Shown: positions 7,428-54,673 of the stretch, piece after piece | Position numbering within the stretch: position 1 is the stretch's first letter | Layout: every line of letters starts with the position of its first letter | Source of the DNA: Mycobacterium phage phiGD24-3 | Strand: one strand, 5' to 3' | Sequence record: MW314854.1 | DNA: 54,877 nt | Program-made: the position numbers and the translations under genes | The notes under the pieces: generated by a model | What the model saw: only the letters and a program-made list of their open reading frames with translations | Databases searched by the model: none | What the model was told of the DNA's origin: nothing

Positions 7428-7499
7428 TGGGACCTAGCTTAGTTGGTAGAGCGCCCGCCTGAAAAGCGGGAGGCCCTGGTTCGAGTCCAGGGGTCGCAG
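7428..7499 (+). tRNA. tRNA-like, anticodon GAA (Phe); G3·G70 mismatch in acceptor stem
   Basis: manual cloverleaf: D-arm GCTT/GAGC, anticodon loop CTGAAAA, T-arm CCTGG-TTCGAGT-CCAGG. Confidence 0.5.
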
Positions 7500-7654
7500 C
7501 AGGAGATGCAACCCTTACCGGGGAATGCTGCATCATCGCGTGGGTGCCGGTAACACCGCGACGCGACGGAATGCTGGACCTGCATACCCGGCCTCACAGG
7601 TGACGGGGTGTAGCTATCCATCGCCTCTCGGTTGGGTCCGTTAAGCCCGCCTCT

Positions 7655-7739
7655 GGAAGGTATGCCCTCGGCTGGGGCAACCGGTCTTGAAAACCGGCAC
7701 ACAGTAACCATTCTGGGGGTTCGACACCTCTACCTTCCG
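7655..7739 (+). tRNA. class II tRNA-like, anticodon UGA (Ser) with 17-nt variable arm; A at position 8
   Basis: acceptor GGAAGGT/ACCTTCC perfect; anticodon stem CCGGT/ACCGG, loop CTTGAAA; T-loop TTCGACA. Confidence 0.45.
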
Positions 7740-7888
7740 CTCGTGGGATCTCCAGTCACCCTGACATTGAGATCATCTGTCCCAGCACCAAACGACTGAC
7801 GAAGCCCTGTGATGGGTAGAAACACCCTCCAGGTGTCTCGTGGAGTCCGCACCGCTGGGGAATAACTGCGGACCTAGGGGTGACAACT

Positions 7889-7961
7889 GTCGACGTAGCT
7901 CAATTGGTAGAGCAGCGGTCTCCAAAACCGCAAGATGCAGGTTCGAGTCCTGTCGGGTCAG
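7889..7961 (+). tRNA. tRNA-Trp(CCA)-like with non-pairing acceptor stem (possible pseudo-tRNA)
   Basis: D-, anticodon- (loop CTCCAAA) and T-arms perfect, but 5' GTCGACG does not pair with 3' CGGGTCA. Confidence 0.4.
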
Positions 7962-8058
7962 CATGGATCAAGCAGGTTCTATGTCTGTGGCCGTCCCGAT
8001 GGTCTGTGGCCCTCGGGGACGCAGGGGTCCAAACCCTCGTCACTTGCTTGATCACCAA

Positions 8059-8134
8059 TGGAACATAGCTCAGCTGGTAGAGCACCCGTCTGAAAAGCGG
8101 GAAGTCCCTGGTTCGACCCCAGGTGTTCCAGCCA
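8059..8134 (+). tRNA. tRNA, anticodon GAA (Phe), encoded CCA
   Basis: perfect cloverleaf: TGGAACA/TGTTCCA acceptor, loop CTGAAAA, T-arm CCTGG-TTCGACC-CCAGG, GCCA 3' end. Confidence 0.8.
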
Positions 8135-19740: not shown

Positions 19741-19754
19741 CTTGACATACGGCC
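19741..19754 (+). promoter_or_regulatory. stoperator-type repressor site (CTTGACATACGGCC), the only left-arm copy
   Basis: exact reverse complement of the right-arm GGCCGTATGTCAAG. Confidence 0.7.
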
Positions 19755-28810: not shown

Positions 28811-29170
28811 TTAGAGGACTAGACAGGTTGGGTCGTTGGCGTCGCCTACGGTGTGTTTCTCGGCCTTCACCTCACCGTCTACGGTGATTCGGCACCACGC
28901 CTGGGTATCCCGGCCCTCTCCTGAATTGGCCCAGGTGTACAACGGCTTGGGGCTCTGCGGCACGTTGTCGCCCCGCAGTTCCACTCGGGTCTGACCTGGT
29001 TGGTATCGAATACCGTTTTGGTAGTTGTCGTCGTACGAGGCGAACGAATAGTCACCCCCGACCTCGAACACAACTACCCCCCGCTTCACCGGGGCTTCTG
29101 TAGGCGTCTCGTGGTTGGTACTACATGCCGTCAGCGCTAGCAGCAACACTGGCACTAGCTTCCTCATCAT
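28811..29170 (-). CDS. lipoprotein (signal peptide + lipobox LTAC), translationally coupled to integrase
   Basis: RBS AAGGAGA; 'MMRKLVPVLLLALTAC'; ATGA overlap with the int stop. Confidence 0.7.
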   Translation of the reverse strand: MMRKLVPVLLLALTACSTNHETPTEAPVKRGVVVFEVGGDYSFASYDDNYQNGIRYQPGQTRVELRGDNVPQSPKPLYTWANSGEGRDTQAWCRITVDGEVKAEKHTVGDANDPTCLVL

Positions 29171-30585
29171 TCTCCTTTCAAAGCCATACGTTCCAGTATG
29201 TCGTCGGGTATATGCAGGTGTAGTTTCTGCCCACCTGTCATTGTGGCGGCTAGTGTGATACCTGATTTCAACAGGAGTTCTCGTCGGAATTGCGGGTCGT
29301 CGTCCGACTCCCACATCTCCCGGTATGTCCGGGGCAATTCCCGGTATTCCCACCGGGACTCAGACGTCGGAAGCTTTTCCAGTGAGGCTATACGAGAATC
29401 CAGGGCTGCCAATTGGGCTGTGAGCGACGAACGCATAGTGGCTGATGTCATTGTGCCCAAGAGGGCTGTTAGTTCTTCTGTGGCCCGTATAGCCTCGTCT
29501 AATTCGATTTGGTGGTTTTCAGCCGGTACGAAGTACCTTTCCAGGACGTTTTTGTCCCCCACCTCACGCATAAGGTTTTCTTCCAGGTACTCATCCAACA
29601 TATCGGCCTTGATTCCGGGGGTTCGGTGGTTCCGGCAGTAGTAGCTTCTGTATAGCCCCTTACCGTAATTGCGGGTGTAGCTCCGGTAGTACAAAGGCTT
29701 ATCACATATGTAACACACAACCACCCCGAGAAGTGGCGATGTGTTTTTTACTCGATTCGATGTCTCGGGTAGTTTCCACTGGGTTAGCACGGCTTGCAGC
29801 CGATCCCACTCAGAAGGAGTAAGCAAGGCTTCGCAGTTGGATATAGGTACACCCGACGAATCGCGTACGGTCTTGCCGCGATCGGTGGAGTGGCCTTTAA
29901 GGTACTTATGCTGAAGAATCCGCCACAACGTCTGCGATGTCCACTTCTTCCCACCAGGACTGGGAACCCCTTGGTCGTTCAGACGTTCAGCAACGGTGTG
30001 TACGGCAGTACCGTCTAACACCTCGTCTATCGCACGGCGAAGTATTGGTGCGGTTTCGGTATTCAGAGACAACACCCACCCGCCCTCCGGTAACTTCTCT
30101 GGGATGAGCCAGTATGGCACCGGTCCCCCGGTCCATCGACCGGATTCCAGTAGTTTCTTACGGGACGCCTTGGTCCGTTCTCGGATGGCTTCTAACTCGC
30201 CTTCCGCGACCCCGGCGATGACGTTGGCCACCAACCGGCCAACCCAAGTTGATAGGTCGATGTTGTCGGACACGCACACGAGTGTCTTCTCGTGCTCCAG
30301 CATCCACCCGAACACTTTGTTCAGTGGTATCGCCCGTCGACCTATTCGGTCTAGCTTCCAGGCGACCAGGATGTCCCAGTCCCCCCGTTTGTCTTCCTGG
30401 AACCACGGCCCTAACTGGGGTGCCTCGAAGGGGTCGATAGATCCCGACACGTCTACGTCTTCAGCCCACCCCACGATGGTGTGGTCGTTCATCTCGGACC
30501 ACTTCTCGATCAGTTCTCGTTGGCGGTCGACGGACGTGGATTCCTCGGTCAACCTGGACAAACGCACCCGTCCTAGTACTCGCAT
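29167..30585 (-). CDS. int: large serine recombinase / integrase (Bxb1-like)
   Basis: N-terminal 'MRVLGRVRLSRLTEESTS' resolvase catalytic domain with S at the conserved position; zinc-ribbon and coiled-coil C-terminal region. Confidence 0.9.
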   Translation of the reverse strand: MRVLGRVRLSRLTEESTSVDRQRELIEKWSEMNDHTIVGWAEDVDVSGSIDPFEAPQLGPWFQEDKRGDWDILVAWKLDRIGRRAIPLNKVFGWMLEHEKTLVCVSDNIDLSTWVGRLVANVIAGVAEGELEAIRERTKASRKKLLESGRWTGGPVPYWLIPEKLPEGGWVLSLNTETAPILRRAIDEVLDGTAVHTVAERLNDQGVPSPGGKKWTSQTLWRILQHKYLKGHSTDRGKTVRDSSGVPISNCEALLTPSEWDRLQAVLTQWKLPETSNRVKNTSPLLGVVVCYICDKPLYYRSYTRNYGKGLYRSYYCRNHRTPGIKADMLDEYLEENLMREVGDKNVLERYFVPAENHQIELDEAIRATEELTALLGTMTSATMRSSLTAQLAALDSRIASLEKLPTSESRWEYRELPRTYREMWESDDDPQFRRELLLKSGITLAATMTGGQKLHLHIPDDILERMALKGE

Positions 30586-30597
30586 AGGGCGAGTCTA
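30586..30597 (-). promoter_or_regulatory. candidate int promoter -10 (TAGACT), 7 nt before ATG (leaderless)
   Basis: TANNNT hexamer; A of ATG at the expected +1; -35 weak. Confidence 0.35.
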
Positions 30598-30606
30598 CAA
30601 TGCTTC

Positions 30607-30644
30607 CCACATGAGAAGTCGTATAGTAACTATTCTAGATGTGG
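30607..30644. other. candidate attP core: 38-bp imperfect palindrome CCACATgAGAAg...tATTCTaGATGTGG
   Basis: immediately upstream of the serine integrase gene, as in Bxb1-type phages. Confidence 0.35.
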
Positions 30645-30654
30645 TTTAGGTACG

Positions 30655-30696
30655 AAAAAAGCCCCCAGGCCAGCCGGTTAGGGCCAGCCCAGGGGC
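30655..30696 (-). terminator. intrinsic terminator for leftward transcription (15-bp GC stem with G·U pairs + TTTTTT on minus strand)
   Basis: read directly. Confidence 0.65.
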
Positions 30697-30702
30697 CTAG
30701 TT

Positions 30703-30933
30703 TCACAGGTACCCGCCTCCGTAACTACCAGGTAGGAAGTAGCGCATGGTGTCCTCGTACACCGGTTCGGGTGATATGTGCTCCGGTCGAAGGGCGATCA
30801 CCGAGAACCCGTGGTTGGTGAAGTCCTGGAGGATAGACTCCATGTCCTCCAACTCCCGAATCACGATCGGCTGTACAGAATCCGGTAGGCCGAGAAAAGG
30901 TTTCTGCAGGAAGTTAAGCAATCGTCGGACCAC
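30703..30933 (-). CDS. hypothetical protein
   Basis: ORF. Confidence 0.5.
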   Translation of the reverse strand: MVRRLLNFLQKPFLGLPDSVQPIVIRELEDMESILQDFTNHGFSVIALRPEHISPEPVYEDTMRYFLPGSYGGGYL

Positions 30934-31096
30934 TATAAATACCTCCTTCGGGAACGGTTACAAATCCGCTCTGTAACCCCTCGTTGATCATCGCGACACA
31001 TGCTTTGAGAGTGGTTCGATCGTTCATATCCCGCAGCTCGTTGGCTATAGTTTTCAATGTGTCGGCGATCTCGCGGAACTGGGATTCAGTCAGCAT
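30914..31096 (-). CDS. hypothetical protein
   Basis: ORF. Confidence 0.45.
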   Translation of the reverse strand: MLTESQFREIADTLKTIANELRDMNDRTTLKACVAMINEGLQSGFVTVPEGGIYSGPTIA

Positions 31097-31907: not shown

Positions 31908-31921
31908 GGTCGTATGTCAAG
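31908..31921 (-). promoter_or_regulatory. stoperator site GGTCGTATGTCAAG
   Basis: exact 14-mer. Confidence 0.75.
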
Positions 31922-39116: not shown

Positions 39117-39130
39117 GGTCGTATGTCAAG
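39117..39130 (-). promoter_or_regulatory. stoperator site GGTCGTATGTCAAG
   Basis: exact 14-mer. Confidence 0.75.
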
Positions 39131-40873: not shown

Positions 40874-41160
40874 CGACCCTCCTGGTCGTATGTCAAGGGC
40901 GGTACGCCCGAAGGTGCGGATTGCTCGTAAGCCCGCACTACTTGTTTGATCACGTCTGGTTTGAACCCGACAATGGGTTGATGGGTCCACGACAACACCA
41001 ACGGGACCTGTTTGACGCCATGTTCTTTCAGAACATCCATCGCCCAGTCATTATCCGTTGTCGATATGTCGTAGTACTCGTACACCGCACCTTCGCGGTC
41101 CAACAGCTTCTTAACCTGTTCGCAGCCAGGGCAACCCGGCTTCCCGAATACTTGAATCAC
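40870..41160 (-). CDS. NrdH-like glutaredoxin
   Basis: CPGC active site. Confidence 0.75.
   Translation of the reverse strand: MIQVFGKPGCPGCEQVKKLLDREGAVYEYYDISTTDNDWAMDVLKEHGVKQVPLVLSWTHQPIVGFKPDVIKQVVRAYEQSAPSGVPPLTYDQEGR
40884..40897 (-). promoter_or_regulatory. stoperator site GGTCGTATGTCAAG
   Basis: exact 14-mer. Confidence 0.75.
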
Positions 41161-46838: not shown

Positions 46839-46852
46839 GGTCGTATGTCAAG
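46839..46852 (-). promoter_or_regulatory. stoperator site GGTCGTATGTCAAG
   Basis: exact 14-mer. Confidence 0.75.
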
Positions 46853-53138: not shown

Positions 53139-53152
53139 GGTCGTATGTCAAG
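53139..53152 (-). promoter_or_regulatory. stoperator site GGTCGTATGTCAAG
   Basis: exact 14-mer. Confidence 0.75.
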
Positions 53153-54290: not shown

Positions 54291-54320
54291 ACTCTAACTC
54301 ATTGCCGGTCGTATGTCAAG
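54291..54320 (-). promoter_or_regulatory. candidate early promoter (Pleft-like): -35 TTGACA inside operator GGTCGTATGTCAAG (54307-54320), 17 bp, -10 TAGAGT
   Basis: read on the minus strand. Confidence 0.5.
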
Positions 54321-54457: not shown

Positions 54458-54667
54458 TTATCGGTAGTTCTCCGATGTCACGTAGTACACCGCGCCTGTG
54501 TCGGGGTCGGTCCAGTTGCACGGTTTCCCGTCCGTATTCCCGTCCTCGTATTGGCATACGGGCAATTGGTCTGCGTGTGCTGTTGCTTCTACCGCAGTGG
54601 GCAGTCCTACCCAGAACGCACCAACGGTGAGTGTAGCGAGGGCCAGTTGCTTCCATGTGTTTGACAT
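54458..54667 (-). CDS. small secreted protein (69 aa; signal peptide, 2 Cys), probably leaderless
   Basis: 'MSNTWKQLALATLTVGAFWVGLPTAVEATAHA'; ATG at the predicted +1 of the promoter at 54674-54702. Confidence 0.55.
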   Translation of the reverse strand: MSNTWKQLALATLTVGAFWVGLPTAVEATAHADQLPVCQYEDGNTDGKPCNWTDPDTGAVYYVTSENYR

Positions 54668-54673
54668 ACGACC
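54660..54673 (+). promoter_or_regulatory. inverted operator-like site tTTGACATACGACC (13/14) overlapping the start codon of the 69-aa gene
   Basis: reverse orientation relative to 54689-54702, forming a dyad. Confidence 0.6.

What the first reader, a model, noticed from the sequence alone, without database searches (positions are those of the whole stretch)
30586..30700. Candidate attP palindrome, leaderless int promoter and an upstream leftward terminator
A 38-bp imperfect inverted repeat (CCACAT...ATGTGG, 30607-30644) lies 22 bp upstream of the large serine integrase gene. A TAGACT -10 places +1 at the int ATG. A 15-bp-stem terminator (30655-30696) insulates int from the early operon. This layout resembles Bxb1 but with a different attP sequence, implying a different (unknown) attB target.
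Basis: inference. Interest (0 to 1): 0.55.

Follow-up and report, generated by a model that had tools for sequence, protein, structure and literature searches.

The report
Phage attP, integrase promoter and terminator
This 115-base gap in a Mycobacterium abscessus phage really is where the phage recombines with the host chromosome, next to a terminator and a probable promoter for its integrase gene, but the site and its bacterial target were already published.

Summary
The window is almost certainly phage phiGD24-3 (54,877 bp, cluster MabJ, Mycobacterium abscessus). The 117-bp gap between the last leftward early gene and the serine integrase gene holds three parts, all read on the minus strand. 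First comes a strong strand-specific terminator. Then comes attP. Then comes a -10 hexamer, TAGACT, placed so that transcription would start at the A of the int ATG.

So the attP call is right. The palindrome as drawn is not the functional dyad: only 10 of 19 pairs match, it is no better than chance, and it is not conserved. The real dyad is centred on AA (30616-30617), with conserved outer motifs TCTACAAT and ATTCTAGA.

The attB target is not unknown. It is the published attB-7, in codons 17-19 of MAB_2445 (Dedrick 2021).

The leaderless promoter gains strong comparative support. In 34 of 35 distinct upstream regions of related integrase genes, Bxb1 included, a TANNNT hexamer ends 6-8 nt before the start codon, and none of the 34 shows a clear ribosome-binding site (read by eye). 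That regularity, with the -10 lying in the attP arm, is the only mildly new point. The attP is already known, and overall interest is low.

The parts
29167..30585 (-). int, a 472-aa large serine recombinase. The start codon is the ATG at 30585-30583.
   Evidence: ORF. Pfam Resolvase (E = 6e-20), Recombinase (E = 1e-15) and a weak zinc-ribbon match. PDB 9iu2, a 500-aa chain deposited only as 'Integrase', E = 8e-53, aligned from residue 1. The N-terminus MRVLGRxRLSR is conserved from the first Met in Swirley, Arturo, Natosaleda and Bxb1.
30592..30597 (-). Candidate -10 hexamer TAGACT of the int promoter. It ends 6 nt before the ATG, so the predicted +1 is the A at 30585 (a leaderless mRNA).
   Evidence: Sequence. 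Invariant in all attP variants seen. In 34 of 35 distinct related int upstream regions a TANNNT hexamer ends 6-8 nt before the start codon.
30592..30641 (.). attP, about 50 bp: an imperfect dyad of two 24-bp arms around the AA at 30616-30617.
   Evidence: Symmetry scan: 14/24 in the window, 15/24 in T46-3, 16/24 in BWHA-1, the best of all centres tested. Only 0.1% of centres genome-wide reach 14. GC is 38% against 57.7% for the genome.
30594..30601 (.). Outer motif of the int-proximal arm (P'), TCTACAAT, at positions 15-22 from the centre. Inferred contact for the integrase zinc-ribbon domain.
   Evidence: Pairs 7/8 with 30632-30639. Conserved in T46-3, BWHA-1, L080 and in L099, whose Int is only 54% identical.
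30616..30617 (.). Proposed central (crossover) dinucleotide: AA on the plus strand, TT in the int sense.
   Evidence: It is the centre of best dyad symmetry in every attP variant and lies in the common core. In BWHA-1 it is flanked by the perfect repeat TACGAC/GTCGTA. Inferred, not shown.
30616..30623 (.). Common core AAGTCGTA, shared by attP, attB, attL and attR.
   Evidence: The prophiGD43A-4 record ends at window 30623 and starts at 30616. Both junctions were read in M. abscessus genomes L004 and L010. Published as the MabJ core.
30632..30639 (.). Outer motif of the int-distal arm (P), ATTCTAGA.
   Evidence: Its reverse complement, TCTAGAAT, matches TCTACAAT 7/8 at the mirror position.
30653..30698 (-). 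Intrinsic terminator for leftward transcription: 17-bp stem (30698 to 30659) and U6 (30658 to 30653).
   Evidence: The stem is identical in T46-3, BWHA-1 and T49-3 although the flanks differ.
30703..30933 (-). Last gene of the leftward operon before the terminator, a small protein of unknown function (72-76 aa depending on the start chosen).
   Evidence: ORF. Annotated as gene 1, hypothetical protein, in prophiGD43A-4. No Pfam match above cutoff.

Best explanation
The interval is the terminator, attP and int-promoter cassette of a temperate cluster-MabJ (cluster A-like) phage of Mycobacterium abscessus.

Transcription of the leftward operon stops at the hairpin-U6 terminator (30698 to 30653).

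The next 50 bp or so (30641 to 30592) are attP. Integrase dimers would bind two imperfectly symmetric 24-bp arms and exchange strands at a central dinucleotide inside the 8-bp core AAGTCGTA. That dinucleotide is most likely AA at 30616-30617.

The partner site, attB-7, lies in codons 17-19 (Tyr-Asp-Leu) of the host gene MAB_2445, a DJ-1/PfpI-AraC regulator. Integration splits that gene.

int begins 6 nt beyond attP. It is most likely transcribed as a leaderless mRNA from a promoter whose -10 (TAGACT) lies in the outer end of the int-proximal attP arm. That arm stays attached to int in the prophage, so the promoter is kept after integration.

Shown here: the crossover position, the attB identity, and the terminator structure with its conservation. 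Inferred: which dinucleotide is exchanged, that the outer motifs are the zinc-ribbon contacts, and that the promoter is active and leaderless.
For: Identity of the window:
- Its length equals phiGD24-3, 54,877 bp, cluster MabJ.
- It is 100% identical to prophiGD43A-4 across int.

Crossover:
- The prophage record ends and starts overlap at 30616-30623.
- The int-side junction in six M. abscessus genomes reads host ...GTGATCACC|TACGACTT|CTCATGTGGG phage.
- The other junction reads phage ...AGTTACTA|TACGACTT|GGCGTGCGCC host.
- The published core, AAGTCGTA, and attB-7 in MAB_2445 agree.
- attP PCR products were reported for the relatives prophiT46-3 and prophiBWHA-1.

Dyad:
- AA is the best centre in three attP variants: 14, 15 and 16 of 24, against 6 expected by chance.
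- A 54%-identical integrase locus (L099) has the same outer motif on both arms, and its centre is the same distance from the ATG, 32 nt.

Host gene:
- The reconstructed 317-aa ORF is intact in M. chelonae.

Promoter:
- TAGACT and its 6-nt spacing do not vary while neighbouring bases do.
- In 34 of 35 distinct family upstream regions a TANNNT hexamer ends 6-8 nt before the start. Other offsets hold 0-4 hexamers each. I saw no clear ribosome-binding site in any of the 34. The exception, L091, has one, AAAGGAG. The ribosome-binding sites were judged by eye, not scored.

Terminator:
-.
- The same terminator-then-attP-then-int order occurs in Bxb1, Swirley and Arturo. A strict hairpin scan found a terminator upstream of int in 15 of 28 further relatives.
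Against: - No transcript data. The attP region is AT-rich and carries six TANNNT hexamers in 81 bp. Within this one phage TAGACT could be chance, or could be conserved only as part of the integrase binding site.
- There is no good -35 and no TGn extended -10.
- On its own the dyad score of 14/24 is reached by 5.7% of shuffles of the region. The case rests on its coincidence with the core and on the relatives, which are not independent.
- The representative M. abscessus genome gave no match in the genome-contig scans. The empty M. abscessus attB is therefore taken from the paper and from reconstruction, not read directly.
Confidence: 0.85

Rival explanations
1. One reading: the functional attP dyad is the 38-bp CCACAT...ATGTGG palindrome centred at 30625/30626.
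For: The two 6-bp arms are perfect complements and bracket the common core.
Against: Its centre lies 2 bp outside the 8-bp core, so the exchanged dinucleotide could not sit at the symmetry centre. Only 10 of 19 pairs match. 27% of shuffles contain a 6-bp inverted pair. The arms are not conserved in T46-3, BWHA-1 or L080, whereas the dyad centred on AA improves in those variants.
Confidence: 0.05
2. int has no promoter of its own here. It is made from read-through of the leftward operon in the phage, and from the host MAB_2445 promoter in the lysogen. TAGACT is conserved only because it is part of the integrase binding site.
For: TAGACT overlaps the conserved outer attP motif TCTACAAT. The region is rich in -10-like hexamers. 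In the lysogen the host promoter and 16 host codons read directly into int. No -35 is recognisable.
Against: A very stable terminator with U6 lies 68 nt upstream of the ATG. In relatives whose candidate attP centre lies 42-55 nt from the ATG, so that the hexamer is outside the dyad arm, a TANNNT hexamer still ends 6-8 nt before the start codon. No ribosome-binding site precedes the ATG, which fits leaderless translation better than internal initiation on a long read-through RNA.
Confidence: 0.2
3. The crossover dinucleotide is another pair within AAGTCGTA, for example GT or TC, not AA.
For: Junction sequences alone cannot say where within the 8 identical bases the exchange occurs. In Bxb1, as I recall it, the dinucleotide lies in the middle of the core. 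The attB symmetry is weak and other centres score nearly as well: 9/24 at offsets 3 and 4, against 10/24 at AA.
Against: In all three attP variants every other offset within the core scores only 3-9 of 24, near chance, against 14-16 for AA. BWHA-1 has the perfect repeat TACGAC-AA-GTCGTA. The CG at offset 4 is palindromic and could not set the orientation of integration.
Confidence: 0.3
4. The AT-rich element is a repressor binding site (a cluster A-type stoperator) rather than, or as well as, attP.
For: The minus strand reads TTACTATACGACT, which shares ATACGAC with the MabJ stoperator consensus TTGACATACGACC.
Against: The match is 9 of 13. The 3-mismatch search did not report it, and even at 3 mismatches most hits are at the chance level (28 found, 16 expected). 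True sites have 0-1 mismatch.
Confidence: 0.05

Closest known systems
attP/attB-7 system of cluster MabJ prophages of M. abscessus: prophiGD24-3, prophiGD43A-4, prophiT46-3, prophiBWHA-1 (Dedrick et al. 2021, PMC8092301; Amarh et al. 2023, PMC9934374)
   Same: It is the same element. The int protein is identical to that of prophiGD43A-4, the 8-bp core is the same (AAGTCGTA), and the target is the same, the 5' end of MAB_2445.
   Different: The parts of the papers I read (term-search extracts and Table S1) give only the core and the target gene. The dyad centred on AA, the outer TCTACAAT motifs, the terminator and the leaderless -10 are added here.
Mycobacteriophage Bxb1 attP and integrase gp35
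   Same: A large serine integrase. A terminator lies upstream. attP directly abuts the int start codon: 1 nt in Bxb1, 6 nt here. A TANNNT hexamer in the int-proximal arm ends 7-8 nt before the ATG. The common core is short. Integration disrupts a host ORF, groEL1 for Bxb1.
   Different: Only about 30% amino-acid identity. The attP and attB sequences are unrelated. int is rightward after the tail genes in Bxb1, but leftward at the end of the early operon here. As I recall it, the Bxb1 GT dinucleotide sits mid-core, whereas here the proposed AA is at the core edge.
Serine integrases of M. smegmatis phages Swirley and Arturo and Rhodococcus phage Natosaleda (about 47-50% identical)
   Same: These are the closest characterised-genome relatives. 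They share the N-terminus MRVLGRxRLSR. In Swirley and Arturo int is leftward, with a terminator, a dyad-symmetric candidate attP and a -10 ending 7-8 nt before the ATG. Natosaleda-type loci (L112, L137) have a -10 ending 6 nt before the ATG, but no terminator was found and the dyad is weak.
   Different: The candidate attP centres of Swirley and Arturo lie 44-55 nt from the ATG, so their -10 is outside attP. The att sequences and hosts differ.

Membership tests
Large serine recombinase (phage serine integrase) | N-terminal resolvase catalytic domain with the nucleophilic serine | tested here: met
   PF00239, E = 6e-20, residues 7-151. Ser10 in the RLSR motif is invariant in the alignment with Bxb1.
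Large serine recombinase (phage serine integrase) | Recombinase domain followed by a zinc-ribbon domain | tested here: inconclusive
   PF07508 is met, E = 1e-15. PF13408 scores 20.1 bits, below its 25.3 cutoff. Cysteines C291, C294 and C317 are invariant in the five-sequence alignment.
Serine-integrase attP site | Prophage junctions map to the site, with a short common core (2-8 bp) shared with attB | tested here: met
   Both junctions were read in M. abscessus genomes. The core is the 8 bp at 30616-30623. Published core.
Serine-integrase attP site | Imperfect dyad of about 40-50 bp around a non-palindromic central dinucleotide | tested here: met
   14-16 of 24 symmetric positions around AA in three variants, the best of all centres. 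15-17 of 26 in the half-site comparison.
Serine-integrase attP site | Recombines with attB in the presence of integrase alone | not testable with these tools
   Needs a recombination assay. The indirect support is that the window's own sequence is the attP junction of a phage spontaneously released from a lysogen.
Intrinsic (factor-independent) terminator | GC-rich hairpin directly followed by a U tract on the transcribed strand | tested here: met
   17-bp stem, 11 G-C pairs, U6, -32.9 kcal/mol, z = -3.8 on the minus strand only.
Intrinsic (factor-independent) terminator | Transcript 3' ends at the U tract in vivo | not testable with these tools
   No RNA data available.
Mycobacterial leaderless gene (SigA-type -10 at -12 to -7, +1 at the start codon) | A TANNNT hexamer ending 6-8 nt upstream of the A/G of the start codon, and no ribosome-binding site | tested here: met
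   TAGACT-CGCCCT-ATG. Found in 34 of 35 distinct related upstream regions. The definition of the motif rests on established knowledge of mycobacterial promoters.
Mycobacterial leaderless gene (SigA-type -10 at -12 to -7, +1 at the start codon) | Mapped transcription start at the start codon | not testable with these tools
   No 5'-end data available.
Cluster A / MabJ stoperator (repressor site) | A 13-bp match to TTGACATACGACC with 0-1 mismatch, in the operon orientation | tested here: not met
   The best register at attP has 4 mismatches of 13 and was not reported at 3 or fewer. True sites are listed.

The most novel reading that the evidence does not exclude
In this whole family of actinobacteriophage serine integrases, Bxb1 included, int is a leaderless gene. 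In many members, here and in Bxb1, its -10 element is built into the outer end of the int-proximal attP arm. Integrase bound to attP, or to the prophage junction that keeps that arm, would then sit on its own promoter and shut it off. That would be a built-in autoregulatory loop linking site occupancy to integrase supply. On integration here, the region upstream of the core is replaced by host DNA in which the MAB_2445 promoter reads into int.
Probability: 0.25. Interest if true: 0.5.

Novelty: already known. Interest (0 to 1): 0.25.

Why it matters
The attP/attB pair itself adds nothing to what is published. Two practical points follow from the finer anatomy.

- Minimal sites. A defined attP of about 50 bp (30592-30641) and an attB of about 40 bp in MAB_2445 codons 10-24 give the minimal sites for an integration vector orthogonal to Bxb1 and L5 in M. 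abscessus. M. chelonae may also be usable, because its site differs at only two positions in the central 40 bp and keeps the TTG codon.
- Promoter position. The near-universal -10 ending 6-8 nt before the start codon of these integrase genes suggests they are expressed as leaderless mRNAs. The promoter often lies inside attP. This is relevant both to how integrase levels are controlled and to anyone moving these genes into expression constructs.

Tried and rejected
- Stoperator overlapping attP: rejected, 4 mismatches.
- Known RNA family in 30300-31000: only a sub-threshold chance hit, NsiR1, 18.6 bits against a cutoff of 39.
- Sigma-70 consensus scan: it found no promoter at int. This is expected, because the scan requires a -35 match.
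- Exact 34-mer of the reconstructed attB in genome contigs: no hit.
- Degenerate codon-level attB pattern: it found 45 orthologous sites in Mycobacteroides, Nocardia and Segniliparus, but not the M. abscessus representative. The empty M. abscessus site was therefore not read directly.
- Literature search for leaderless serine integrase genes: nothing relevant in the held library.
- Terminator covariation: it cannot be assessed because the stem is invariant in every relative.

Full report
**What the window is.** The integrase region is 100% identical to prophage prophiGD43A-4 of Mycobacterium abscessus, cluster MabJ. The window length, 54,877 bp, equals that of phiGD24-3. That phage was spontaneously released from strain GD24 and propagated lytically (PMC8092298). 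It is also 8 bp shorter than its prophage form, prophiGD24-3 (54,885 bp), which carries the 8-bp core twice. MabJ phages are organised like cluster A mycobacteriophages.

**Checking the observation.**
- The integrase gene runs from 30585 down to 29167 on the minus strand. "Upstream" therefore means higher coordinates.
- Read on the minus strand, the 117-bp gap contains in order: the stop of a small gene (30703), a hairpin with U6, an AT-rich stretch, TAGACT, six bases, then ATG.
- The terminator is stronger than described. It has 17 pairs including four G-U pairs, which exist only in the leftward transcript. Its energy is -32.9 kcal/mol, z = -3.8, and no shuffle of 200 folds as well. The rightward transcript folds at -22.5 kcal/mol with internal loops and no U tail.
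- The palindrome is weaker than described. Only the 6-bp ends and four inner positions pair (10 of 19). 27% of shuffles contain such a pair. No inverted repeat of 8 bp or more is found.

**Where the crossover is.**
- The prophiGD43A-4 record ends at window 30623 and begins at window 30616. The annotators' prophage ends therefore overlap by AAGTCGTA.
- I read both junctions directly in M. abscessus genome assemblies. On the int side, six genomes read host ...GGCGTGATCACC, then TACGACTT, then phage CTCATGTGGG....
- On the other side, five genomes read phage ...AGTTACTA, then TACGACTT, then host GGCGTGCGCC....
- This matches the published table: MabJ, core AAGTCGTA, serine integrase, attB-7, in the 5' end of MAB_2445.
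- attP PCR products from cultures were reported for the relatives prophiT46-3 and prophiBWHA-1.

**The host target.**
- Joining the two host flanks gives a 317-aa ORF with DJ-1/PfpI and AraC-type HTH domains. The core covers codons 17-19 (Tyr-Asp-Leu).
- The orthologue in M. chelonae is uninterrupted and has the same N-terminus.
- The host gene points the same way as int. In the lysogen its promoter and first 16 codons read into int, giving a 32-aa fusion ORF that overlaps the int start in another frame.
- The body of the host gene lies behind the phage terminator, with an in-frame stop three codons before the core. The gene is therefore inactivated, as the paper states.

**The real symmetry of attP.**
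- I scored every possible central dinucleotide for mirror symmetry over 24 positions a side. I used the window and two diverged attP variants rebuilt from the prophage ends.
- In all three the best centre is AA at 30616-30617: 14, 15 and 16 of 24, against 6 expected.
- Genome-wide, 0.1% of centres reach 14. Among shuffles of this region, 5.7% reach it somewhere. The score alone is modest. The weight comes from its coincidence with the mapped core and from its rise in the diverged variants.
- prophiBWHA-1 reads TACGAC-AA-GTCGTA, a perfect inner repeat.
- The outer motifs TCTACAAT (30594-30601) and ATTCTAGA (30632-30639) sit at mirror positions 15-22.
- Those motifs recur on both arms of a metagenomic relative, L099, whose integrase is only 54% identical. 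Its centre is the same 32 nt from the ATG.
- The 8-bp core then has a simple reading: the 2-bp crossover plus a 6-bp inner half-site motif (GTCGTA) that the distal attP arm and one attB arm share. The other attB arm has CACGCC at the mirror position, 4 of 6.
- From established knowledge of large serine recombinases, inner motifs are bound by the recombinase domain and outer motifs by the zinc-ribbon domain. Applying that here is an inference.
- AA is non-palindromic, as orientation control requires. CG, another dinucleotide within the core, is palindromic.

**The promoter.**
- In this phage alone the evidence is thin. attP is AT-rich (38% GC against 57.7%). It holds six TANNNT hexamers on the two strands, where 0.7 would be expected.
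- The ATG at 30585 is the true start. The N-terminus MRVLGRxRLSR aligns from the first residue with Swirley, Arturo, Natosaleda and Bxb1. No ribosome-binding site precedes it.
- The comparative test is much stronger. I collected 80 related integrase loci from viral contigs. I kept those whose match starts at a start codon followed by Arg, then removed duplicate upstream sequences.
- Thirty-six distinct upstream regions remained, one of which is not a true start (L120). Of the other 35, 34 have a TANNNT hexamer ending 6 nt (15 cases), 7 nt (16) or 8 nt (3) before the start codon. Every other offset from 1 to 64 holds 0-4 hexamers.
- The single exception, L091, has AAAGGAG, a plain ribosome-binding site, instead. 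I saw no such site in the other 34. These sites were judged by eye from the printed sequences, not scored.
- The sequences further upstream are otherwise unrelated, and the set includes Bxb1-type genes.
- In Swirley- and Arturo-type phages the candidate attP centre lies 44-55 nt from the ATG. There the hexamer is outside attP yet still keeps its spacing. Its conservation is therefore not just a by-product of integrase binding.
- This fits the known mycobacterial pattern of leaderless genes, with a -10 at -12 to -7 and +1 at the start codon (established knowledge). I put the leaderless promoter at about 0.7.

**Comparison with Bxb1.**
In Bxb1 a terminator is followed by the 50-bp attP, which ends 1 nt before the int ATG. 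I supplied the Bxb1 attP sequence from memory, and it matched the record exactly.
- At genome scale the layout differs. Bxb1 int is rightward after the tail genes. Here int is leftward, as the last unit of the leftward arm.
- The proteins are about 30% identical.
- A GC-rich hairpin with a T run lies 28-180 nt upstream of int in 15 of 28 other relatives under a strict search. The two shortest stems, 9 bp each, are doubtful. That search missed the bulged Bxb1 hairpin.
- The order terminator, attP, leaderless int is thus a common cassette, not a peculiarity of this phage.
- prophiT49-3 is a MabJ phage with a different serine integrase and a different target (attB-21). It shares this terminator exactly, and identity to the window starts at 30651. 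The attP-int unit has evidently been swapped at that boundary.

**Verdict.**
- The attP call, the terminator and the promoter idea stand.
- The palindrome as drawn does not stand.
- The "unknown attB" is in fact published.
- The element is an ordinary, already described serine-integrase attachment site.
- The one point that may be new is the family-wide -10 placed for a leaderless start, and its overlap with the int-proximal attP arm here and in Bxb1. That overlap would allow integrase to repress its own promoter. This is untested.

Noticed in passing
window 30561-30585: The GenBank record of prophiGD43A-4 starts int at the TTG at 30561 (464 aa). prophiT46-3 and prophiBWHA-1 use the ATG at 30585. 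Homology of residues 1-8 (MRVLGRVR) to Swirley, Arturo, Natosaleda and Bxb1 favours the ATG.
   Followed up: yes
window 30651-30696; L019 38-83: prophiT49-3 has a different serine integrase and integrates at attB-21. It shares the terminator 100%, but everything between the terminator and int differs. This marks a recombination boundary for the attP-int module just past the U tract.
   Followed up: partly
L014 6430-6565; L021 2870-3003; L030 2870-3003: Some M. abscessus assemblies and IMG/VR contigs carry the intact attP junction (terminator, attP, int) rather than a host junction. L021 lies in a 96.8-kb contig and has SNPs in both arms. This suggests excised circles in the sequenced cultures, or tandem prophages.
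   Followed up: no
L031-L075 (45 genomes): The attB region is conserved as coding sequence in orthologues across Mycobacteroides, Nocardia and Segniliparus. Most of them have CTG instead of TTG at the Leu codon, which changes the proposed crossover dinucleotide. M. chelonae (L050) keeps TTG and differs at two positions in the central 40 bp. The representative M. abscessus genome gave no match in either scan.
   Followed up: partly
L004 9915-10013: In lysogens the MAB_2445 promoter and 16 host codons read into the prophage. This gives a 32-aa fusion ORF whose stop lies just inside int. Host transcription could therefore reach int.
   Followed up: partly
window 31908-31920, 39117-39129, 40884-40896, 46839-46851, 53139-53151, 54307-54319 (-) and 54661-54673 (+): Exact copies of the MabJ stoperator TTGACATACGACC. 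One-mismatch copies lie at 19742, 44736, 45158, 54191 and 54689. All right-arm copies are on the minus strand except 54661 (+), which is probably the operator at the early leftward promoter. None lies between the terminator and int.
   Followed up: partly
L018 end / L017 start (prophiBWHA-1 attP): The int-proximal arm of the BWHA-1 attP (GTTCCCATACGACAA) matches the stoperator consensus at 10 of 13 positions. This is probably chance, but both share TACGAC.
   Followed up: no
window 30596-30601 (+) and 30637-30632 (-): Each outer attP motif contains a good -10-like hexamer, TACAAT and TAGAAT, pointing toward the centre of attP. The first would read out of the prophage toward the divergent host gene. 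There is no evidence of function.
   Followed up: no
window 7428-8134: ARAGORN finds three tRNA genes (Phe-GAA, Ser-TGA, Phe-GAA). The published table lists four for prophiGD24-3.
   Followed up: no
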